From a virus (Duplodnaviria > Heunggongvirae > Uroviricota > Caudoviricetes), in the IMG/VR virus record IMGVR_UViG_3300028999_000002: a stretch of DNA of 51,967 nucleotides; one strand, given 5' to 3'. This document shows, in pieces, positions 3,182-39,100 of this stretch. The notes beneath the pieces are model-generated. The model did not search any database. It was not told where the DNA came from and saw only the letters and a program-made list of their open reading frames with translations. Made by a program: the position numbers and the translations under genes. Numbering within the stretch: position 1 is the first letter of the stretch; each line of letters opens with the position of its first letter.

Positions 3182-6100
3182 TCAACTGATACTGATGCCG
3201 GCTGTTGATTTCTTCATCACGACAACAAGAAGGTCGCTGATACTGGTCGTTGGCGTCCAGTTATTTGCACCATATGAAGAAACATTGAAAGTCAGGGTGA
3301 CATGGCCGTGTCCGGCAGGCATATCAATGACTGATGAAAATACCCTGCTGACATCCGTCGCGGGTTGCTGAAAGATTTCCTGTCCGTTCTTCAGCACCTG
3401 CAGCTTACAGGTTGAATACCAGTATGACTGTTGGTTGTTGCTGTTGAAGTTTTCATGCTTACCACCGCGAAACAGAACGGGGGGGACGACTATCTGACGG
3501 TCAAAAGCCTGGTCATCGTACACAGTGACCGTTATTGTACCGCTGGCATAACTGCCATTTCTCGGAAAGGCTTTTCCCACCGTTTTGACAATATCACCTT
3601 CAATCTGGTTAGCTGACAGTTTTCCCAGAATCCGACAGTTCTGGTTAATCGTGACATTATTGAGCGTCCCGGAGTTCGCATTCACGTTACCGCTGATATC
3701 CGCATTTCTCGCAGAAAGTCGACCATCAGGTGTCAGTGAAAACGTTGGGGGATTGCCACCGCTGGTAATGGTGGGAGCCGTCAGATATTTCAGGAACACT
3801 TCGTTCATGAATATCTGATCGCCCTGCCCAACAAACATCGGCTTTGTATTGCCATTCGCAGGATTAATCATCGCAATCCTGTCCGCCGCCAGCAGCACCT
3901 GACTCTGCATACCGTCAGGGGTATTCTCAATACCGGCACCAATACCCGCGATATAAAGGCGTCCGTCCTGCATCTGCTGCAGCTTCACAGCCCACATGCT
4001 GTTCAGGTTATTATTTGTATCAACCTGAACCTTCTGTATCTGCTGGATCGCTGCACTCTGGTCTTCCAGTTTCTTATTGACGGTCTGCGTGATTTCATTG
4101 CTGACATCCGTAATGGACGTCCTGATTTCAGCCAGGTCAGGCGCAAGCTGACCGTTATCAATCTGCGTCCACAACTCCTGAGCCAGATGGGTTTTCCCTA
4201 TCTCTCCTTTGAAAAAATCCAGATAGCCGGATGCATCATCACTCGGCTGGCCAACAGCCTCCACAAATGCCGATTTGCCAACGGTGTTCACACTGCGAAT
4301 GTAAAAATAATAATCATGGCCCGGTTTGATATTGATACTGGCGGCTATCCAGTACAGCGCCGTACCAAGATAACGCGCGCTGGCTTCAACCTGCCTGATA
4401 TCCGCAATCCGCTTTTCCGAGAACCAGAACTCAAACTGTACCGTCGGATCATAAACGGCAAGATGCGGCGTTGCGGTTATCTGAAAATAGCCCGGCGTCA
4501 GCTCAATCCTCGACGGTGCTGCCGGTGCGGCAATCCGGAACGATACCGACGCCGGATCGCCCTGCTGCCCCCACGCATTTACCGCCCGGACTGTCAGCCT
4601 GTAGTTCCCCAGCGCCAGTTGCCTGAAGCGGTATGTGGTTTCCGTCGTCCGGGCCGTGCTGACCAGCCGCTCACTGCCGTCATCCGCTGTTACGGTCAGA
4701 CGGAGCAGGAAGCTCACGCCCTTCACCACCTTCGGCGTGTCCCAGCGCGCCAGCACCTGATATTCCCCGCTGTCTGCGGTGACTTCGGCGGTCAGGTGCT
4801 GCACCGCTGGCGGCGTGACACCATTCACCGTGCCGCTCTGGTCGCCGTCAAAGTACGCCCCGTTATCCACGATGGCCTCTTTTTCCGGTACATGCTGCAC
4901 GGCGGTGATGGCATACGTGCCGTCGTCGTTCTCACGGATACTCACGCAGCGGAACAGGCGCTGGCGCAGCGTCGGCAGCTTCAGCCCCCACACGCTGTAT
5001 TCAGCAACACCGTCAGGAACACGGCTCACTTTCACCTTCACGCCGTCGGTGACGGACTGAACCTCCACGCTGATCGGATTGCCACTTCCGTCAACCAGGC
5101 TTATCAGCGTGGTACCGGAGGATGGCAGCGTGATTTCACGGTCGAGCGTCAGCGTCCGGGTCTGGCTGTTCACCGCCAGCACACGACCACCGGTGCTGAT
5201 ACCGGCATAGTCATCATCGCAGATTTCAATGACATCCCCCGGTACATGGCGAAGCCCTTCAGCACCCACGCTGAAGTCCACGGTCTGCGTTTCCAGCAGC
5301 TCCGTTTTAATCAGCCACAGCCCGGCGCGGTGTGCCTGCCCCCGGCTGGTACAGCCAAAGGCATCCATCTTCGTGACGTTACGGCCGTAACGGGCAATGG
5401 CCTGCGTATCCTCCACGAGCTCTGTCGCCGTCTCCCAGCCGTTATCCGGGTCAATCCAGTTCACCTCAACGGCATTATGGCGGTCCTTCAGGGCGCTGAA
5501 GCTGTAGCGGAACGGCGCGCCATCATCCGGCATCACCACATTACTGCGGTTATAGGTCCACACCTTATCTGATGGTCGGTCCTGCACGAACGTCAGCGTC
5601 TGCCCGTTCCATACCGGCATACAGCGCATCGCCGAGCAGAAATCACTGAGCACATCCCACGCCTTGCGCTGTGTGGTCAGGTACGCATTACAGGTAATGC
5701 GCGGCTCCGTGCCGCCAAAGCCGTCCGGCACCGACTGGTCGCAGTACTGGCCGATGACATACAGCGCCCATTTATCCACATCCGCCGCACCAAGACGTTT
5801 CCCCATGCCGTAGCGCGGATGGGTCAGCATATCCCACAGACACCAGGCCATGTTGTTGCTGTATGCCGGTTTTAACGTTCCGTCCCAGATACCGCTGTAT
5901 TGCCGCGTCTGCGGGTTATAGTTCGACGGCACCTGCAGAATGCGCCCGCGAAGATGATAATTACGGCTCACCTGCTGGCTGCCGAACTGCTCCGAGTCCA
6001 CCTGCACGCCAACCAGTGCCGTGTTCGGGTAGCACTGTTTCACATCGATGATTTCGGTGTATGACGACCAGAGCGTTTTGTTCAGCAGCTGGTCTGTGGT

Positions 6101-33199: not shown

Positions 33200-33290
33200 A
33201 CACGATTTTCCCTGAAAAATTTTCATAAATAGTGAAAAACCGCGAGGTCGCCGCCCCGTAACCTGTTGGATCGACGGAAAGGACCCGAAA
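33200..33290 (-). other. prophage cos site (cosN GGGCGGCGACCT at 33245-33256)
   Basis: Minus strand reads GGGGCGGCGACCTCGCGGTTTTTCACTATTTATGAAAATTTT, upstream of Nu1 as in lambda. Confidence 0.85.
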
Positions 33291-33404: not shown

Positions 33405-33656
33405 ATGAAAATCAGAAATATTCTCGCTATCTCCCTTGCGACATCATCCTTCAGTTGCCTGGCATTTAAATCCTCGCCCAATGTGCTACCAGGACCAACG
33501 AATCAACTAACTGCGGTAGAAAGTAAAATTATCGGACATTTTTATGCCCCACACAGTACATTACCCGGAACAACCATCACAGGGACATGTGACGCCTCCC
33601 CCGTCCCGGGATGCACCTGTCCGTTTTGTACTATGCTGCGTAGCCAAAACCGATAA
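33405..33656 (+). CDS. hypothetical secreted protein (signal peptide predicted)
   Basis: 83 aa from MKIRNILAISLATSSFSCLA…; hydrophobic N-terminus, Cys-rich C-terminus. Confidence 0.3.
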   Translation: MKIRNILAISLATSSFSCLAFKSSPNVLPGPTNQLTAVESKIIGHFYAPHSTLPGTTITGTCDASPVPGCTCPFCTMLRSQNR

Positions 33657-34019
33657 CATCCGCATTTACCTGGTATTCCATGATGAGTTCACGCAGCGAC
33701 TGATAGAGGAAGGAAAGATGGTTAGTAAAAGCAAGGCGCATTGCCGCCGCATGCTGCAGGCATTGCAACAGACGAGAGCAGGTATTTTTGACCAGTTGGA
33801 AAACTGCCAGCATACTTTGCCCGAGTATATCGCCATCTCATCGGAAACCAGTGCAACTCTTATTCATCGGGTTCCACCAGAGAAAAAGAAGAAATGAACA
33901 GTGAGGCGTTGTGTGGCATACAACGCCTTCTTCCATCATTCCTCGTCAGCCATGACAAAAATATAACCGCTGGCTCTTTCATTTTTCTCCTGCTTCCAGC
34001 CCCTCTCTACCTGGAAGCA

Positions 34020-34346
34020 TCAAGGACGTGACGGCGTAAAGATAAATTGTCTCTTCACTCCCTGACAGGGGCGATTCTTTTCAAATCGCCATTTCGCCAT
34101 GGCCTTCACCACTTCATCACGAAACAAATTATGAGGCTCTGAGCGGAGAAAAACGATCCGTGTCACAGTCCCATCAGCACCAATATCGAACTTAACCTCA
34201 ACCAGCCCCTTGATATAATTTGCTGCAGCATATTCCGGATATCGTGGATACACCGTCACTAATTGCCGGGGCTCATCAGCTTTTTGCTGCGAGCATCCCA
34301 CTGCCAGGACAGATAACAGAAAAAGTAGTAAAAGGCGTCTTTTCAT
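34020..34346 (-). CDS. lipoprotein with a TonB C-terminal-like domain
   Basis: MKRRLLLLFLLSVLAVGC lipobox signal, then a TonB_C-like segment (…YIKGLVEVKFDIGADGTVTRIVFLRSEPHNLFRDEVVKAMAKWRF…); AGGA SD. Confidence 0.5.
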   Translation of the reverse strand: MKRRLLLLFLLSVLAVGCSQQKADEPRQLVTVYPRYPEYAAANYIKGLVEVKFDIGADGTVTRIVFLRSEPHNLFRDEVVKAMAKWRFEKNRPCQGVKRQFIFTPSRP

Positions 34347-34826
34347 TTTTATTCCTACGGGTCTTATTCTGACAATATATCCTGTGTTCCAGACTGCCAC
34401 ATCACCACATCCTGTGCCATTATCTGACTCACATTACATACATCGCATCGGGATACAGTAGTAGCACTTTCTGTAATACAGCTTCCTGTTTCTTCCACCA
34501 TCGCACCGGGATAAACCCGCGAATCATTAACGCGGTAAAAACCCGGTGTGCATCGTTTTTAATTATTCCCGCACACTCACGCAGAAGGAATTCCCCGTCG
34601 GGCTACGGTCATGGTTAATGCGGGAATACGGCGACGATACAGCGCAGCTAAAAGGGTAATGGACGGATAGACCGGTTTATTTCATTCCACAGGATTCTGA
34701 GTGTCCCCAACTTCCTCCAATAGTCTGAGCCCACCTGTGTAGTTTTAATTTTCATCAATCCATTTAACTATCGTTTAATTGTTGTCACATAGGATTCTGC
34801 CGTTTTTAACAATGCAGGATAATAAG

Positions 34827-35120
34827 ATGAAAAAAATGTTGTTTTCTGCCGCTCTGGCAATGCTTATTACAGGATGTGCTCAACAGACGTTTACTGTTGG
34901 AAACAAACCGACAGCAGTAACACCAAAGGAAACCATCACCCATCATTTCTTCGTTTCGGGAATTGGACAGCAGAAAACTGTTGATGCAGCCAAAATTTGT
35001 GGCGGCGCAGAAAATGTTGTTAAAACAGAAACCCAGCAAACATTCGTAAATGGATTGCTCGGTTTTATTACTTTAGGCATTTATACTCCGCTGGAAGCGC
35101 GTGTGTATTGCTCACAATAA
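34827..35120 (+). CDS. bor: Bor lipoprotein (serum-resistance, Iss homolog)
   Basis: Near-identical to lambda Bor (MKKML…ITGCAQQTFTV…EARVYCSQ). Confidence 0.9.
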   Translation: MKKMLFSAALAMLITGCAQQTFTVGNKPTAVTPKETITHHFFVSGIGQQKTVDAAKICGGAENVVKTETQQTFVNGLLGFITLGIYTPLEARVYCSQ

Positions 35121-35151: not shown

Positions 35152-35613
35152 CTATCTGCACTGCTCATTAATATACTTCTGGGTTCCTTCCAGTTGTTTT
35201 TGCATAGTGATCAGCCTCTCTCTGAGAGTGAAATAATCCCGTTCAGCGGTGTCTGCCAGTCGGGGGGAGGCTGCATTATCCATGCCGGAGGCGGTGGTGG
35301 CTTCACGCACTGACTGACAGACTGCTTTGATGTGCAACCGACGACGACCAGCGGCAACATCATCACACAGAGCATCATTTTCAGCTTTCGCATCAGCTAA
35401 CTCCTTCGTGTATTTTGCATCGAGCGCAGCGACATCACGTTGGCGCACCTGCATGTCAGTAATTGTCGAGTTCGCCAGCTTCAGTTCTCTGGCATTTTTG
35501 TCGCGCTGGGCTTTGTAGGTAATGGCGTTATCACGGTAATGATTAACCGCCCATGACAGACAGACGATGATGCAGATAACCAGAGCGGAGATAATCGCGG
35601 TTAATCTGTTCAT
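35152..35613 (-). CDS. Rz: spanin, inner-membrane subunit Rz
   Basis: 153 aa, lambda Rz-like. Confidence 0.9.
35211..35393 (-). CDS. Rz1: spanin, outer-membrane lipoprotein subunit Rz1 (embedded in Rz, +1 frame)
   Basis: 60 aa with lipobox (…VVVGCTSK…) and Pro-rich tail. Confidence 0.8.
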
Positions 35614-36086
35614 ACCTCAATCTCTCTGACCATTCCGCCCGCTTCTTTGAATTTTGCAATCAGGCTGTCAGCCTTATGCTCGAACTGACCATAACCAGCG
35701 CCCGGCAGTGAAGCCCAGATATTGCTGCAACGGTCGATAGCCTGACGAATATCACCGCGATCAATCATCGGTAAAGCGCCACGCTCTTTAATCTGTTGCA
35801 GTGCCACAGCGTCCTGGCTTTTCGGAGAGAAGTCTTTCAGGCCAAGCTGCTTGCGGTAAGCATCCCACCAGCGTGAAAGAAGTTGATAACGGCCTGCAGC
35901 TGTTGATTTGAGTTTCGGGTTTAGCGTGACAAGTTTGCGAGGGTGATCGGAGTAATCAGTGAAGAGTTCTCCACCGACAATAACGTCATAACCGTGGTTA
36001 CGTGTCGGTTGTCGCCCGTTATCCGTTCCCTCTGACCATGCCACCATATCCAGGAAAGCTTTACGCTGGGAATTTAGTACCTGCAT
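35610..36086 (-). CDS. R: endolysin R (lytic transglycosylase)
   Basis: 158 aa, lambda R-like (…[16 protein letters not shown]…). Confidence 0.95.
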
Positions 36087-36089
36087 AAA

Positions 36090-36416
36090 TTACTCCTTAG
36101 AGCCACCAAACTTGTTACCGATTACTCTCATTGCAGCCCCACGAATAGCATCAACACCGATCAGCCCCACCCCACCACCAATGGCAACAGATAGTGATTT
36201 AGGCCATCCGACATACTCAAGAGCGGATGCAAAAGTCAGCGTCAGAGCGCCACAGAGTAGAATTTCGAGTGTTTTTCGCTTCCAGCCGCCACCACCGCCA
36301 AAATAGGCAATACGTAAACCAGCCATAACAATCGACATAATCACTGCGCCCAGCGGTGTGTCTCCACGCCACCAGCTCTGGACCAACTCCAGCCATGTAT
36401 TTGGGTTATGAGGCAT
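36090..36416 (-). CDS. putative holin (not lambda S-like)
   Basis: 108-aa membrane protein in the S position directly upstream of R; Gly-rich TM segments. Confidence 0.6.
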   Translation of the reverse strand: MPHNPNTWLELVQSWWRGDTPLGAVIMSIVMAGLRIAYFGGGGGWKRKTLEILLCGALTLTFASALEYVGWPKSLSVAIGGGVGLIGVDAIRGAAMRVIGNKFGGSKE

Positions 36417-36707: not shown

Positions 36708-37883
36708 ATGGATATAACTTGTTTAGAATGTGGCAATGTTCTTGACGACCCAACTGTAGCTTGCGATAAATGCGGTGCCACGCCTCATGTTGTAGTGCTG
36801 GGCAAACAATCGTACTTTCCTATTGGTGCTGTAACAGCAAATCTTGAAAAAAATGATTCAAGAGCATTTGATTATCGATTAGGTGAAGTTTGGGATCTAA
36901 AAAATGAAGTCACATCTGAATTCATAACCAGAATTGAGAAAAAATTTAGCCGAAAAAACAAATTTCATAACTTCCTAGACTCAGATCACAACCCTTCATC
37001 CATTCCTACGATCCTAAAAAAATACATTAATAAAAATAATGAATTCATTGATTTATCTAGAGCTATAATAGAGAAGCTTAAACATAATGCTAATAACGAA
37101 TCGAGAGTTGCCCAACTTCAGGGGGGGAGCGTTGTTTTCATCCACTATAAGTCTACCGAACCAGAGGATTTGGGGAAACTTCTAATCGTAATGGTTGATA
37201 AACAAAGCGCCTATGACTTTGATTCGGATAAGTTGACCCCAACAAGATTAAATCCAATTAATACCGATGCCTTACGGCAGGCTGCGATGTTCGATTTAAC
37301 TTTATTCGAAGCCAGTTATCCAGAAAACAAGGGTGACTCATATGTACATTTCTTGCAAGGTAAATCTAAAAGCGATTTTTTCAAAGACTCATTAGGTTGC
37401 CGACATGATTCGGACAATAAAAGAAGCATTCAGCAATTATTCAGTGCTATAGATATTTTTGCTAGTAAAAACTCACTCGGTCGTGTACTGCGTGATACTA
37501 TTGACAATGAAGTTAAATCCTTACTGGAAAAAAAATCAAAAGATAAACACGGAAATAAGTCCGTTAAGATAGAGGATATTTCAAAAATAATTGACTCATG
37601 CCTGACTGATTCACACAAATGTAAGGGAACGTTTGTCGATTTTGTTAATCTTAATGGTTTCCAGATTGACCCTCAATTTGAACCAACTCCTAAAGCAGCT
37701 GAAAGCGCGCTTACAATTGAAGTGGCAGATAACGACAATAATTTTAAGTTGAAAATAATGCGTGGAGCTATTGGAGACGAAAAGTCAAATAAGCCTGTAA
37801 TTCTCACTGACAACAAATGCGAAATTGTGATAAAATTGAGTCAGGCAAATTATGATGAACTCAAAAGATATAGAGACAGCTAA
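36708..37883 (+). CDS. zinc-ribbon protein with a YejK/NdpA-like (NA37 nucleoid-associated protein family) domain
   Basis: N-terminal CxxC…CxxC; central region aligns with remembered E. coli YejK (GG.V.F.HY…DLT…Y.(T/H)FL.G…DFF.D.LG); AT-rich. Confidence 0.6.
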   Translation: MDITCLECGNVLDDPTVACDKCGATPHVVVLGKQSYFPIGAVTANLEKNDSRAFDYRLGEVWDLKNEVTSEFITRIEKKFSRKNKFHNFLDSDHNPSSIPTILKKYINKNNEFIDLSRAIIEKLKHNANNESRVAQLQGGSVVFIHYKSTEPEDLGKLLIVMVDKQSAYDFDSDKLTPTRLNPINTDALRQAAMFDLTLFEASYPENKGDSYVHFLQGKSKSDFFKDSLGCRHDSDNKRSIQQLFSAIDIFASKNSLGRVLRDTIDNEVKSLLEKKSKDKHGNKSVKIEDISKIIDSCLTDSHKCKGTFVDFVNLNGFQIDPQFEPTPKAAESALTIEVADNDNNFKLKIMRGAIGDEKSNKPVILTDNKCEIVIKLSQANYDELKRYRDS

Positions 37884-37885
37884 TA

Positions 37886-39100
37886 ATGACAATTGCTGAT
37901 GACTTATCAAGATTAGCGCAGATTATTAACGGAGCCTCAAGCAGAGTTGAGGGCTACTACACTGTCATAAGTCTTGAAGAAAGCATTGTTATTGTAAATA
38001 GTTCTGAAATAATTAGACTGTTACAATCTATAGGTTATAAAAAGGCAACAACCTGCATCGAAAATAATGAAATTTGGCTAGATCGCCAAGCTTCATCTTG
38101 GGATGATGCTATAATTTATGAGAATGTTGAGTCTTTTTGGTCTAGAGTAAACACCCAAAACGCTCTTCCGAAAAATTATATCATCGGAACGCCGTTAATA
38201 CTCCCTACTTCTAAGAATGAAAGCATCGAAAAAATCCATATTTTCTTTATGTGGAAAGATATCCTTTCATTAATTTCTGATCATCATAACAGTGACTGCT
38301 CTGTCTTATTTTTCACCAATGAAGACAAAAGTTATACAGTCGAACTCACGCATTTTTTACAATATAGCGAGATTAATCGCTTATCGAACTCGTCTCTTAA
38401 ATATGAAATTATAAAGGAGCTTCTCGACACAATAAAAATCAATGATTTACACAAAAGCGAGCGCAAGCTCGTTATACGCTCAGCCATAAACGAAGTATTT
38501 AAAGCAAATGGTACGTTCAATTTCTTTGACTTGCTTAACTCTACTGAACTCGTCAGGAAAAAATATGATGAACTATATGAGATTTACACAAAGAGGTTTT
38601 CTGTAAATAAAATTCTTAACGAACTCGATGAGAAAAATCTTGAGTTCACGAGTAAAATTAACGAATTCATATCATCTAATCAGACAAAAGCATTGACTAT
38701 TCCCGGTGCATTAATAGCAGCTGGTGGCTTAGTGAAGGCTAATGAAACAACCGAAGCAATATTGATTATCGCAGGACTTTGGATGATAAAAAAAGTCAAT
38801 TACATTTCTATTGAGATATTCAATGAAACATTCGACAACTTACGTTCTCGAGTGGAGTCCGCTTTCGATAAGTATTTAAAGTTTGAAGAAAATAAAGAAA
38901 TCAAAGATAATGCAGATAGTATTAAGAGTAGCATTACAGGTTTGATTGATAAAGCTAAAAAAAGGATGAGAACTGTTAAATATCTCGCATCAGCCATGTT
39001 TTATGGAGGCCTTATTTACGTTGGATATAAACAGTTCCCAGTCTTTTTTGAAAAATCGGCAGTAAATCTATTTTATTTTTTATGCCATACTATAAGCTAA
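37886..39100 (+). CDS. hypothetical membrane protein (C-terminal TM segments), co-operonic with the preceding gene
   Basis: Start 2 nt after the upstream stop (TAATAATG); hydrophobic segments near the C-terminus; AT-rich. Confidence 0.6.
   Translation: MTIADDLSRLAQIINGASSRVEGYYTVISLEESIVIVNSSEIIRLLQSIGYKKATTCIENNEIWLDRQASSWDDAIIYENVESFWSRVNTQNALPKNYIIGTPLILPTSKNESIEKIHIFFMWKDILSLISDHHNSDCSVLFFTNEDKSYTVELTHFLQYSEINRLSNSSLKYEIIKELLDTIKINDLHKSERKLVIRSAINEVFKANGTFNFFDLLNSTELVRKKYDELYEIYTKRFSVNKILNELDEKNLEFTSKINEFISSNQTKALTIPGALIAAGGLVKANETTEAILIIAGLWMIKKVNYISIEIFNETFDNLRSRVESAFDKYLKFEENKEIKDNADSIKSSITGLIDKAKKRMRTVKYLASAMFYGGLIYVGYKQFPVFFEKSAVNLFYFLCHTIS

What the first reader, a model, noticed from the sequence alone, without database searches (positions are those of the whole stretch)
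34020..34346. Prophage-encoded lipoprotein with a TonB C-terminal-like domain next to bor
A moron between cos and bor encodes a lipoprotein (lipobox LAVGC) whose mature part resembles the TonB C-terminal domain. By analogy with phage superinfection-exclusion lipoproteins that block outer-membrane receptors (Cor, Llp), a TonB-C mimic could interfere with TonB-dependent receptors used by other phages or colicins, or alter iron uptake.
Basis: inference. Interest (0 to 1): 0.5.

Follow-up and report, generated by a model that had tools for sequence, protein, structure and literature searches.

The report
Prophage lipoprotein mimicking TonB's C-terminal domain
A small prophage gene next to bor/iss encodes an outer-membrane lipoprotein made almost entirely of a copy of the receptor-binding end of the host protein TonB; it is real, common and already annotated, but whether it jams TonB-dependent uptake (of phages, colicins or iron) has not been tested.

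Summary
Window 34020-34346 (- strand) encodes a 108-aa protein with a lipoprotein signal peptide (cleavage before Cys18, Ser at +2), a 7-residue tether and one TonB C-terminal domain. Support: Pfam E=7e-13, solved TonB structures E=1e-14, and an AlphaFold model (pLDDT 86.6) that superposes on TonB from the BtuB and FhuA complexes at 0.9-1.0 A.

It is not new as a gene. The same protein is in phage 21 ("TonB C-terminal domain protein") and phage Perceval ("TonB fragment"), and it or a ~72-74% DNA-identity variant is in 1617 of 5426 complete E. coli genomes.

It is not a broken tonB. dN/dS between the two E. coli variants is 0.12. Lipoprotein homologues at 38-44% identity occupy the same slot (after the lysis genes, before terminase, late orientation) in unrelated Salmonella and Klebsiella prophages. 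Published LF82 RNA-seq shows it transcribed in the lysogen about 8-fold above its silent late-gene neighbours.

I found no paper testing its function. The best-supported mechanism (confidence about 0.4) is an outer-membrane-tethered TonB decoy that dampens TonB-dependent entry of phages and bacteriocins. Interest is moderate.

The parts
34020..34346 (-). CDS including stop codon: 108-aa prophage lipoprotein consisting of a signal peptide, a 7-residue tether and one TonB_C domain
   Evidence: ORF listing and translation. Pfam, NCBIfam and PDB matches. 100% protein identity to phage 21 CPT_21_73 and to Perceval LF82_160. dN/dS 0.12.
34293..34346 (-). Signal peptide (residues 1-17) plus lipid-modified Cys18; lipobox L14-A15-V16-G17-C18 occupies 34293-34307
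   Evidence: Read directly from the sequence. PROSITE-style lipobox pattern matched in 12 of 13 homologues, the Cys column is invariant, and +2 is never Asp.
34038..34271 (-). TonB_C domain (residues 26-103), aligned without gaps to E. coli TonB residues 153-230
   Evidence: AlphaFold model has pLDDT >=94 over residues 31-100. Foldseek: 2gsk_B TMt 0.92 at rmsd 1.0 A; 2grx_C TMt 0.91 at rmsd 0.9 A.
34353..34356 (-). Ribosome-binding site AGGA, 6 nt upstream of the ATG
   Evidence: Sequence. The same site is annotated in phage 21.
33904..34019 (-). Two 9-bp hairpins downstream of the stop codon (33991-34019 and 33904-33928); the second is followed by a T-rich run. Candidate terminator region, possibly bidirectional.
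   Evidence: RNA fold and sequence. The consensus terminator scan did not call either hairpin on the - strand, so this is tentative.
34475..34650 (-). Conserved non-coding element upstream of the gene. It marks the right-hand boundary of the ~1.3-kb module that carries the gene, and may hold its promoter or serve as a recombination linker.
   Evidence: ~93% identical to phage JLK-2012 although the adjacent CDS is only ~72% identical. Found in 432 phage records. 26 of 80 IMG/VR loci lose homology to the window at ~34600-34700. No Rfam match.
34827..35120 (+). bor/iss, the neighbouring divergently oriented serum-resistance lipoprotein moron. Context only; it is not functionally tied to the TonB_C gene.
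   Evidence: Pfam Lambda_Bor E=2e-30. PGAP names it 'iss' in UTI89. Co-present in about 42-45 of 71 identical-variant loci.
33250..33290 (.). cos region (cosN end at ~33257, cosQ at ~33280-33286), the left boundary of the module
   Evidence: Mapped from the end of the phage 21 record and its cosQ annotation. 19 of 80 loci lose homology to the window at ~33200.

Best explanation
The gene is an autonomously expressed prophage moron. Its product is exported, lipidated at Cys18 and sorted to the periplasmic face of the outer membrane. There it displays a complete TonB C-terminal domain on a tether of only ~7 residues.

The protein has TonB's receptor-binding module but lacks the transmembrane anchor and the proline-rich spacer that couple TonB to ExbB/ExbD and the proton-motive force. 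It can therefore engage what TonB engages but cannot transduce energy.

Possible partners are the TonB boxes of ligand-loaded TonB-dependent transporters, the TonB boxes of group B colicins, or TonB/ExbD periplasmic domains arriving at the outer membrane.

The most likely role is a dominant-negative decoy. It would lower productive TonB-transporter or TonB-bacteriocin encounters, making the lysogen less susceptible to TonB-dependent phages (T1, phi80, H8, ES18 type), group B colicins and siderophore-microcins. The cost would be some loss of siderophore uptake.

Shown here: sequence, fold, lipobox, purifying selection, conserved slot in prophages of three genera, and expression in a lysogen. 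Inferred: lipidation and outer-membrane location, binding to TonB boxes, and the phenotype.
For: 1. TonB CTD identity.. The model superposes on TonB as seen bound to BtuB and FhuA (TMt 0.92 and 0.91; rmsd 1.0 and 0.9 A).

2. Functionally important TonB residues are kept. These are the YP motif (Y163/P164 = Y36/P37) and the aromatic residues F180, F202, W213, Y215 and F230 (= F53, F75, W86, F88, F103). Apart from the lipobox Cys18 and Ser69, every residue invariant in the lipoprotein family is identical in E. coli TonB.

3. No energy-coupling parts. The protein scores 69 bits against TonB equivalog cut-offs of 265-448 bits. Its N-terminus is a lipoprotein signal peptide.

4. Precedent. [quoted passage not shown] Both are as summarised in PMC9841981, citing Howard et al. 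2001 and Tuckman & Osburne 1992.

5. Moron behaviour. In LF82 prophage Perceval the identical gene (LF82_160) reads log2 FPKM 5.0-6.6 in all five conditions. Adjacent Rz and terminase genes read 2.3-4.3, and host tonB reads 4.2-7.2.

6. Selection and spread. dN/dS is 0.12. 30% of complete E. coli genomes carry it. Homologues at 38-44% identity sit in the same post-lysis, pre-terminase slot of Salmonella and Klebsiella prophages that have different lysis and packaging modules.

7. Geometry, from my recollection of the published 2GRX and 2GSK descriptions. The N-terminal segment of the TonB CTD (R158, Q160, R166) lies at the receptor interface, so a short N-terminal lipid tether is compatible with the TonB-like binding pose.
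Against: - No experiment addresses function; I found no paper.
- Stoichiometry (general knowledge; Higgs et al. 2002 is cited in PMC9841981): derepressed transporters greatly outnumber TonB. A decoy expressed at roughly tonB's mRNA level could not titrate all TonB boxes.
- Carriers include siderophore-dependent ExPEC and AIEC strains (UTI89, NU14, LF82), where a general TonB blocker should be costly.
- The TonB residues that contact receptors specifically are not conserved (R158->T, Q160->Y, R166->Y). The Ton-box-pairing strand beta3 is charged (VKRQFIF) where TonB has IVVNILF.
- There is no Fur box (best match 11 of 19 positions, background level). There is also no induction in macrophages or DMEM, where host tonB does respond. 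So it is not coordinated with iron status.
- TonB_C domains occur in many non-TonB architectures, so the fold alone does not dictate the ligand.
Confidence: 0.4

Rival explanations
1. Envelope or fitness lipoprotein unrelated to TonB traffic. The TonB_C fold would serve as a generic periplasmic binding module for another partner, such as peptidoglycan or another protein that donates a beta-strand. The benefit to the lysogen would be of the kind given by its neighbour Bor/Iss (envelope robustness, serum or stress resistance).
For: - TonB_C domains occur in many secreted or lipoprotein architectures that are not energy transducers.
- A chromosomal, non-prophage homologue exists in Raoultella, flanked by envelope-protein genes including DUF1440/YagU.
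- The receptor-contacting TonB residues R158, Q160 and R166 are replaced, and the family has its own conserved motifs (Y39, N43, S69-E70-P71, HLFD).
- Expression is constitutive and independent of iron status.
- It is often, though not always, linked to iss/bor and is enriched in pathogenic lineages.
Against: No alternative ligand is indicated by any result. Conservation is concentrated on exactly the residues that TonB needs for function. The peptidoglycan-binding idea for the TonB CTD rests on my memory of older literature and was not checked here.
Confidence: 0.3
2. Late or lysis-associated phage function. The gene lies in the late operon orientation immediately after the lysis cassette in all prophage types examined. 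It could therefore act at lysis or release, either as a spanin-like outer-membrane partner or as a Llp-like protector that keeps progeny from being inactivated on receptor-bearing debris.
For: - The slot and orientation are conserved in E. coli, Salmonella and Klebsiella prophages.
- PHROGs places the protein, over its full length, in phrog_1267, labelled 'Rz-like spanin', category lysis (E=5e-43).
Against: - The window phage has its own Rz/Rz1 pair (35152-35613 and 35211-35393). The Salmonella prophage has an embedded proline-rich o-spanin inside its DUF2514 i-spanin (L007 5546-5800).
- From general knowledge, o-spanins are short, proline-rich and unstructured, whereas this protein is a globular TonB_C domain.
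- The gene is expressed in the lysogen while the lysis genes are silent.
- Closely related phages such as lambda and 434 lack it.
- The carrier phages have unrelated tail and packaging modules, so there is no common receptor to protect against.
- The PHROG label is most simply explained as annotation by neighbourhood.
Confidence: 0.1
3. Positive modulator of particular TonB-dependent transporters. It might hold or pre-extend a Ton box to favour uptake or signalling of one substrate, rather than acting as an inhibitor.
For: The same structural evidence as for Ton-box binding. Perceval also carries the sitABCD metal-uptake genes, so the phage carries other cargo linked to metal physiology.
Against: The protein has no energy source, and no precedent is known to me. 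The engineered TonB fragments that have been tested inhibit rather than stimulate.
Confidence: 0.05
4. Non-functional relic: a truncated tonB pseudogene fragment picked up by a phage, as the annotations 'TonB fragment', 'partial' and 'truncated' imply.
For: Only the legacy product names.
Against: - dN/dS is 0.12 with synonymous sites close to saturation.
- The ORF is intact in 1612 genomes.
- The lipobox is conserved in homologues down to 31% identity.
- It has an RBS and is expressed.
- Enterobacterial TonB is not its closest relative.
Confidence: 0.03

Closest known systems
C-terminal domain of the energy transducer TonB (Pfam PF03544; E. coli TonB residues ~150-239; PDB 1U07, 2GSK, 2GRX)
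   Same: Homologous domain: 38% identity over 85 ungapped positions. Same fold (TM 0.9, rmsd ~1 A). The YP motif and the five functionally important aromatic residues are conserved.
   Different: It lacks the N-terminal transmembrane helix and the proline-rich spacer, so it has no ExbB/ExbD coupling. It is anchored to the outer membrane through a lipid, not to the inner membrane. R158, Q160 and R166 are replaced and strand beta3 is charged. It also lacks TonB's last ~6 residues.
Engineered periplasmic TonB fragments (Howard, Herrmann, Stratilo & Braun 2001) and Ton-box peptides as dominant-negative inhibitors
   Same: A TonB periplasmic domain uncoupled from the energy source and placed in the periplasm. 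Those constructs inhibit TonB-dependent iron import, as summarised in PMC9841981.
   Different: Those are laboratory constructs of E. coli TonB itself, soluble and overexpressed. This is a natural, diverged, lipid-anchored protein expressed at a moderate level. Whether it inhibits anything is untested.
Phage lipoproteins that inactivate the TonB-dependent receptor FhuA: Cor (phi80, N15) and Llp (T5)
   Same: Small phage-encoded outer-membrane lipoproteins that act from the periplasmic side, target TonB-dependent transporter function, and give superinfection exclusion (Cor as described in PMC11436027).
   Different: No sequence or fold relationship: Pfam gives only TonB_C and PHROGs gives phrog_1267. 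Cor and Llp are specific for one receptor, whereas a TonB mimic would in principle act on the shared Ton-box step.
Bor / Iss (Pfam PF06291), the adjacent moron
   Same: A lambdoid late-region moron that encodes an outer-membrane lipoprotein and is expressed in the lysogen. It lies in the same hot-spot between Rz and cos.
   Different: Unrelated fold, opposite strand, and strongly induced in macrophages whereas the TonB_C gene is not. It is inherited independently of the TonB_C gene in about 40% of loci.

Membership tests
TonB_C domain family (PF03544 / TIGR01352) | Profile score above the curated cut-off | tested here: met
   PF03544 scores 49.2 bits against 24.6; TIGR01352 scores 47.4 against 27.1.
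TonB_C domain family (PF03544 / TIGR01352) | Three-stranded sheet plus helices that superpose on solved TonB C-terminal domains | tested here: met
   Model pLDDT 86.6. The top 16 PDB matches are all TonB-family CTDs. 2gsk_B gives TMt 0.92 at rmsd 1.0 A.
TonB_C domain family (PF03544 / TIGR01352) | Binds the Ton box of outer-membrane transporters by beta-strand addition | not testable with these tools
   No complex prediction or binding assay is available. Only residue conservation could be examined.
TonB energy transducer proper (NCBIfam equivalogs NF008080-NF008084) | N-terminal inner-membrane anchor that couples to ExbB/ExbD | tested here: not met
   The N-terminus is a cleavable lipoprotein signal peptide. 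It scores 45-69 bits against equivalog cut-offs of 265-448 bits.
TonB energy transducer proper (NCBIfam equivalogs NF008080-NF008084) | Proline-rich spacer that spans the periplasm | tested here: not met
   Only 7 residues (SQQKADE) lie between Cys18 and the first domain residue.
Bacterial outer-membrane lipoprotein (signal peptidase II substrate) | Basic n-region, hydrophobic core, lipobox ending in Cys, and no Asp at +2 | tested here: met
   Pattern matched in the window protein and in 12 of 13 homologues. The Cys column is invariant. Position +2 is Ser, Thr or Ala.
Bacterial outer-membrane lipoprotein (signal peptidase II substrate) | Actual lipidation and outer-membrane localisation | not testable with these tools
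   Needs globomycin or palmitate labelling and membrane fractionation.
Phage moron | Dispensable insert: present or absent among closely related phages within a conserved gene order | tested here: met
   Lambda, 434 and many other phages share bor and the flanking element but lack the gene. The module has defined breakpoints at cos and at ~34650.
Phage moron | Transcribed in the lysogen independently of neighbouring late genes | tested here: met
   Published LF82 RNA-seq: about 8-fold above the prophage background, with Rz and terminase neighbours at background (PMC9928086). This is for the identical gene in another prophage, not this window's strain.
Phage moron | Own promoter and terminator | tested here: inconclusive
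   No sigma-70 consensus site was found on the - strand upstream. Two hairpins lie downstream, but neither was called by the terminator scan on the - strand.
Cor / Llp superinfection-exclusion lipoproteins | Sequence homology to Cor or Llp | tested here: not met
   The Pfam and PHROG scans returned only TonB_C, phrog_1267 and phrog_34172.
Cor / Llp superinfection-exclusion lipoproteins | Blocks infection through a TonB-dependent receptor | not testable with these tools
   Needs phage plating assays.
Spanin (PHROG 1267 label 'Rz-like spanin') | Is the outer-membrane partner required to complete the phage's spanin complex | tested here: not met
   The window has an embedded Rz1 (35211-35393) within Rz. 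The Salmonella prophage has an embedded o-spanin. The protein is globular rather than short and proline-rich.
Known anti-phage defence systems (PADLOC-DB) | Match to a defence-system protein model | tested here: not met
   No PADLOC hit at E<=0.01.

The most novel reading that the evidence does not exclude
Temperate phages of Escherichia, Salmonella and Klebsiella carry a dedicated family of outer-membrane-tethered TonB mimics. These would act as a broad 'energy-transducer decoy'. By capturing Ton boxes of transporters, or of incoming group B colicins, at the outer membrane without delivering energy, they would protect about 30% of sequenced E. coli from TonB-dependent phages, colicins and siderophore-microcins. 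This would be a new mechanistic class of prophage-encoded exclusion or immunity, working by mimicry of a host machine rather than by blocking one receptor.
Probability: 0.3. Interest if true: 0.7.

Novelty: new variant of a known kind. Interest (0 to 1): 0.5.

Why it matters
If the decoy mechanism is right, a gene present in roughly a third of complete E. coli genomes would modulate the single energy gateway used by siderophores, vitamin B12, many phages, group B colicins, microcins and siderophore-antibiotic conjugates. Carriers include UTI89, ATCC 25922, LF82 and O157:H7.

That would bear on four areas:
- phage-therapy host range;
- bacteriocin-based competition in the gut;
- susceptibility to Trojan-horse antibiotics;
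- how prophages trade iron-uptake cost for protection.

It would also be a natural counterpart of an inhibitor that so far has only been engineered in the laboratory. If the mechanism is wrong, the family is still a well-defined, strongly selected prophage lipoprotein of unknown function, and it is currently mislabelled in several databases as 'TonB fragment', 'partial' or 'Rz-like spanin'.

Tried and rejected
- **First structure model.** With a 6-sequence alignment it was poor (pLDDT 60.8) and its PDB matches were weak. I replaced it with a 13-sequence alignment.
- **Species-representative genomes.** A scan with the 13-sequence alignment failed because no stretch was conserved enough. A 5-sequence alignment found only a Raoultella chromosomal homologue and a probable E. 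coli contaminant contig in a Modestobacter assembly.
- **Fur regulation.** The best match to the 19-bp Fur consensus near the gene is 11 of 19 positions, which is background level. Rejected.
- **Sigma-70 promoter.** None was called on the - strand upstream. My reading of the conserved blocks found only weak candidates.
- **Structured RNA upstream.** No Rfam family matched and the fold z-score is only -2.35. The element is widespread in phages that lack the gene, so it is not specific to this gene.
- **Spanin reading from PHROGs.** Rejected after finding embedded o-spanins in the carrier phages.
- **Link to the phage's own receptor.** The tail-tip J receptor-binding domain is 50% identical to lambda's and is shared with phages that lack the gene. 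Carrier prophages in Salmonella and Klebsiella have unrelated virion modules. No link was found.
- **Viral structure library (BFVD).** No match at E<=0.001.
- **PADLOC.** No hit.
- **Literature.** Nine full-text searches found no functional study. Howard et al. 2001 is not held in the library, so it is cited only through PMC9841981.
Full report
**1. What is there**

Window 34020-34346 on the - strand is an ORF of 108 codons, MKRRLLLLFLLSVLAVGCSQQKADEPRQLV...FIFTPSRP. An AGGA ribosome-binding site lies 6 nt upstream; phage 21's annotators marked the same site.

The N-terminus has every sequence feature of a lipoprotein signal peptide. There are three basic residues, a 12-residue hydrophobic core, and A-V-G-C with Cys18. 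It matches the PROSITE-style lipobox pattern, and residue +2 is Ser. By the standard Lol sorting rule (established knowledge, not tested here) this predicts the outer membrane.

Residues 26-103 are a TonB C-terminal domain:
- Pfam PF03544 scores 49.2 bits against a cut-off of 24.6.
- TIGR01352 scores 47.4 bits against a cut-off of 27.1.
- phmmer against solved structures gives E. coli TonB CTD at E=1.4e-14.
- The alignment to E. coli TonB is ungapped (residue n corresponds to TonB n+127) and 38% identical.

**2. Structure**

A first AlphaFold model from 6 close sequences was poor (pLDDT 60.8). With 13 family members the model reached mean pLDDT 86.6, and 94 or more over residues 31-100.

Foldseek against the PDB gave TonB-family CTDs as the top 16 matches. 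The similarity is real.

**3. Context**

The window is a lambdoid prophage read on the - strand. The order is holin S (36090-36416), endolysin R (35610-36086) and Rz/Rz1 (35152-35613 and 35211-35393). These are followed by bor/iss on the opposite strand (34827-35120; Pfam Lambda_Bor E=2e-30). Next come the TonB_C gene, cos (~33257, mapped from the end of the phage 21 record), Nu1 and the large terminase subunit.

**4. It is a known, annotated gene**

The same protein (100% identity) is found in several named phages:
- phage 21, as CPT_21_73 'TonB C-terminal domain protein';
- phage Perceval of strain LF82, as 'TonB fragment';
- phage ev017, as 'Partial tonB-like membrane protein encoded within prophage CP-933N';
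- three ECOR phages.

PGAP calls it 'TonB family protein' in UTI89, NU14, ATCC 25922 and many other strains.

A blastn of the gene finds it in 1617 of 5426 complete E. coli genomes. By DNA identity, 1202 are at 99% or more and 392 fall in the 60-80% band, with listed examples at ~72-74%; this second variant is typical of O157:H7, O111 and Stx1a phages. All but one place are chromosomal.

IMG/VR holds 212 relatives, and 71 of the best 80 are 100% identical in protein.

**5. It is not a broken tonB**

- Between the two E. coli variants dN/dS is 0.12, with synonymous sites near saturation.
- An exhaustive profile search found further proteins of 107-133 aa with the same architecture. Most have a lipobox Cys, a short tether and a single TonB_C domain.
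- Their sources name these homologues in Salmonella enterica, the Klebsiella pneumoniae complex, Gibbsiella and Rahnella. One was also found in Raoultella.
- Enterobacterial TonB proteins rank below these, and below unrelated multi-repeat secreted TonB_C proteins. The family is therefore an old, separate lineage and not a recent capture of the host gene's 3' end.
- The Cys column is invariant in 13 members. In the prophage-borne members the tether from Cys to the Pro that aligns with TonB P153 is 6-8 residues.

**6. The genomic slot is conserved across unrelated phages**

Each case below has the gene after the lysis genes, before the terminase genes, in the late-gene orientation.
- In Stx-type phage JLK-2012 the 72% variant lies between S-R-Rz and the terminase genes.
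- In Salmonella prophages the 44%-identical homologue follows holin, GH19 endolysin and a DUF2514 i-spanin. It precedes HNH, TerS and TerL of an HK97-like head module.
- In Klebsiella prophages the 38-41% homologue lies between the lysis genes and a Terminase_2/Terminase_6 packaging module.

In the 71 identical E. coli loci the shared module runs only from about cos to ~34650. Homology to the window breaks at ~34600-34700 in 26 loci and at ~33200 in 19 loci. bor is co-present in roughly 60% of them. Linkage to bor is therefore common but not obligatory.

**7. Expression**

Published RNA-seq of the LF82 lysogen lists the identical gene (LF82_160) as a moron, 8-fold above the prophage background in LB (PMC9928086 Table 1).

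The supplementary tables give these log2 FPKM values:

| Gene | Values |
|---|---|
| LF82_160 (TonB_C gene) | 5.0-6.6 in LB, DMEM-type medium and macrophages |
| Adjacent Rz spanin and terminase genes | 2.3-4.3 |
| Host tonB | 4.2-7.2 |
| bor | from ~4 up to ~11 |

The gene is thus transcribed autonomously and roughly constitutively, at about the level of host tonB. It does not follow bor or tonB regulation.

Consistent with that, I found no Fur box; the best match is 11 of 19 positions, which is background level. I could not identify a convincing sigma-70 promoter. Two 9-bp hairpins follow the stop codon.

**8. Mechanism**

The protein keeps what TonB uses at the outer membrane. It has the YP motif (Y36/P37) and the equivalents of F180, F202, W213, Y215 and F230. 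Apart from the lipobox Cys18 and Ser69, every residue invariant in the lipoprotein family is identical in E. coli TonB.

It lacks everything TonB uses to receive energy. There is no transmembrane anchor and no proline-rich spacer, and it scores 45-69 bits against equivalog cut-offs of 265-448 bits.

A TonB periplasmic domain uncoupled from ExbB/ExbD is known to be inhibitory. [quoted passage not shown] A Ton-box pentapeptide reduces colicin killing and phi80 infection. Both results are as summarised in PMC9841981, citing Howard et al. 2001 and Tuckman & Osburne 1992. I could not read the primary paper.

As I recall the published FhuA-TonB and BtuB-TonB structures, the N-terminal segment of the CTD lies at the receptor interface. 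A short lipid tether from the outer membrane's inner leaflet is therefore geometrically compatible with the TonB-like pose.

My best explanation is therefore an outer-membrane-tethered, energy-dead TonB mimic. It would compete for Ton boxes of transporters or of group B colicins, or trap TonB/ExbD domains. It would lower susceptibility to TonB-dependent phages and bacteriocins. I give it confidence of about 0.4.

**9. Why not higher**

- No experiment exists in the literature I could search; nine searches found none.
- Derepressed transporters vastly outnumber TonB (general knowledge). A decoy made at tonB-like mRNA levels could not titrate all Ton boxes. It might still trap rarer ligands such as colicin Ton boxes, or TonB itself.
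- Carriers include ExPEC and AIEC strains that depend on siderophores.
- R158, Q160 and R166 of TonB are replaced by T, Y and Y. Strand beta3 reads VKRQFIF where TonB has IVVNILF.
- TonB_C domains also occur in many other architectures, and Raoultella has a chromosomal homologue among envelope-protein genes.

A TonB-independent envelope or fitness role is therefore a serious rival (confidence 0.3).

A lysis-linked role is suggested by the conserved slot and by the PHROG label 'Rz-like spanin' for phrog_1267. However, the carrier phages have their own complete spanins, the protein is globular, and it is expressed in lysogens. I rate that rival at 0.1 and regard the PHROG label as annotation by neighbourhood.

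**10. Comparison and novelty**

It is a member of the TonB_C domain family; that membership was tested and met. It is not a TonB; that membership was tested and not met. It is unrelated to Cor and Llp, with which it may share a type of function.

The gene has been annotated since the EDL933-era 'partial tonB-like' label, and it was listed as an expressed moron in 2023.

Three things are not in the literature I could search:
- that it is a distinct prophage lipoprotein family spanning three genera with a conserved slot;
- that it is under strong purifying selection;
- any test of the decoy idea.

I classify it as a new variant of a known kind, with moderate interest (0.5). The hypothesis is attractive, cheap to test and relevant to about 30% of sequenced E. 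coli, but at present it rests on inference.

Noticed in passing
window 34475-34650 (read on the - strand): A ~175-nt non-coding element upstream of the gene is ~93% identical to phage JLK-2012, although the adjacent coding sequence is only ~72% identical. It occurs in 432 phage records (lambda, 434, Stx phages, Salmonella SPN3UB), always in the same orientation between the lysis genes and cos, and is mostly unannotated. Lambda's homology to the window ends inside it (~34538). There is no Rfam match and the fold z-score is -2.35. It could be a recombination linker for moron exchange or an unrecognised late-region regulatory element.
   Followed up: partly
window 36708-37883 (+) and 37886-39100 (+): A two-gene insert on the opposite strand between holin S and the Q region. 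It encodes a 391-aa protein with a zinc-ribbon-like N-terminus and an NA37 nucleoid-associated domain (PF04245, phrog_3767), and a 404-aa protein of unknown function (phrog_5023). Neither has a PADLOC hit. It looks like another moron or a candidate defence pair.
   Followed up: partly
PHROGs phrog_1267 (matches window 34020-34346): The PHROG family that contains this TonB_C lipoprotein is labelled 'Rz-like spanin', category lysis. The carrier phages have their own Rz/Rz1 pairs, so the label is probably a neighbourhood-based mis-annotation that could propagate through Pharokka-type pipelines.
   Followed up: yes
L004 5998-7301 (Raoultella ornithinolytica) and L010 / L005 (Klebsiella prophages): In Raoultella a 45%-identical homologue is chromosomal, with no phage genes nearby. 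It lies directly upstream of a DUF1440/YagU-type membrane protein gene. The Klebsiella prophages that carry the TonB_C gene also carry a DUF1440 gene just after Q. This may be a recurrent association or a relic of prophage cargo.
   Followed up: no
L010 5379-5663 (Klebsiella prophage): A gene with the Acb2/Tad1 hairpin domain (PF24729, an anti-defence family) lies ~340 bp upstream of the TonB_C lipoprotein gene, with one small ORF between them. This shows that the post-lysis slot collects host-interaction cargo.
   Followed up: no
L003 (NZ_SJEX01000172.1, Modestobacter excelsi assembly, 418-bp contig): A 418-bp contig in an actinobacterial assembly encodes residues 1-67 of this E. coli prophage protein at 100% identity. 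It is almost certainly E. coli contamination of that assembly.
   Followed up: no
window 33544-33897 (+) versus 33631-33813 (-): Gene calls conflict between the TonB_C gene and cos. PGAP and the phage 21 annotators call a 60-aa ORF on the - strand. PHROGs phrog_4843 matches, at E=3e-46, the C-terminal 59 aa of the overlapping + strand ORF (probable start at 33718). That ORF would converge on the TonB_C gene at the 33904-33928 hairpin.
   Followed up: no
window 3182-3700 (-), C-terminus of tail-tip protein J: The receptor-binding domain of J is only 50% identical to lambda's. It is identical to that of phages ev017, Lambda_ev203 and Lambda_ev066, so the receptor of this prophage is probably not LamB-as-used-by-lambda and remains unknown.
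   Followed up: partly
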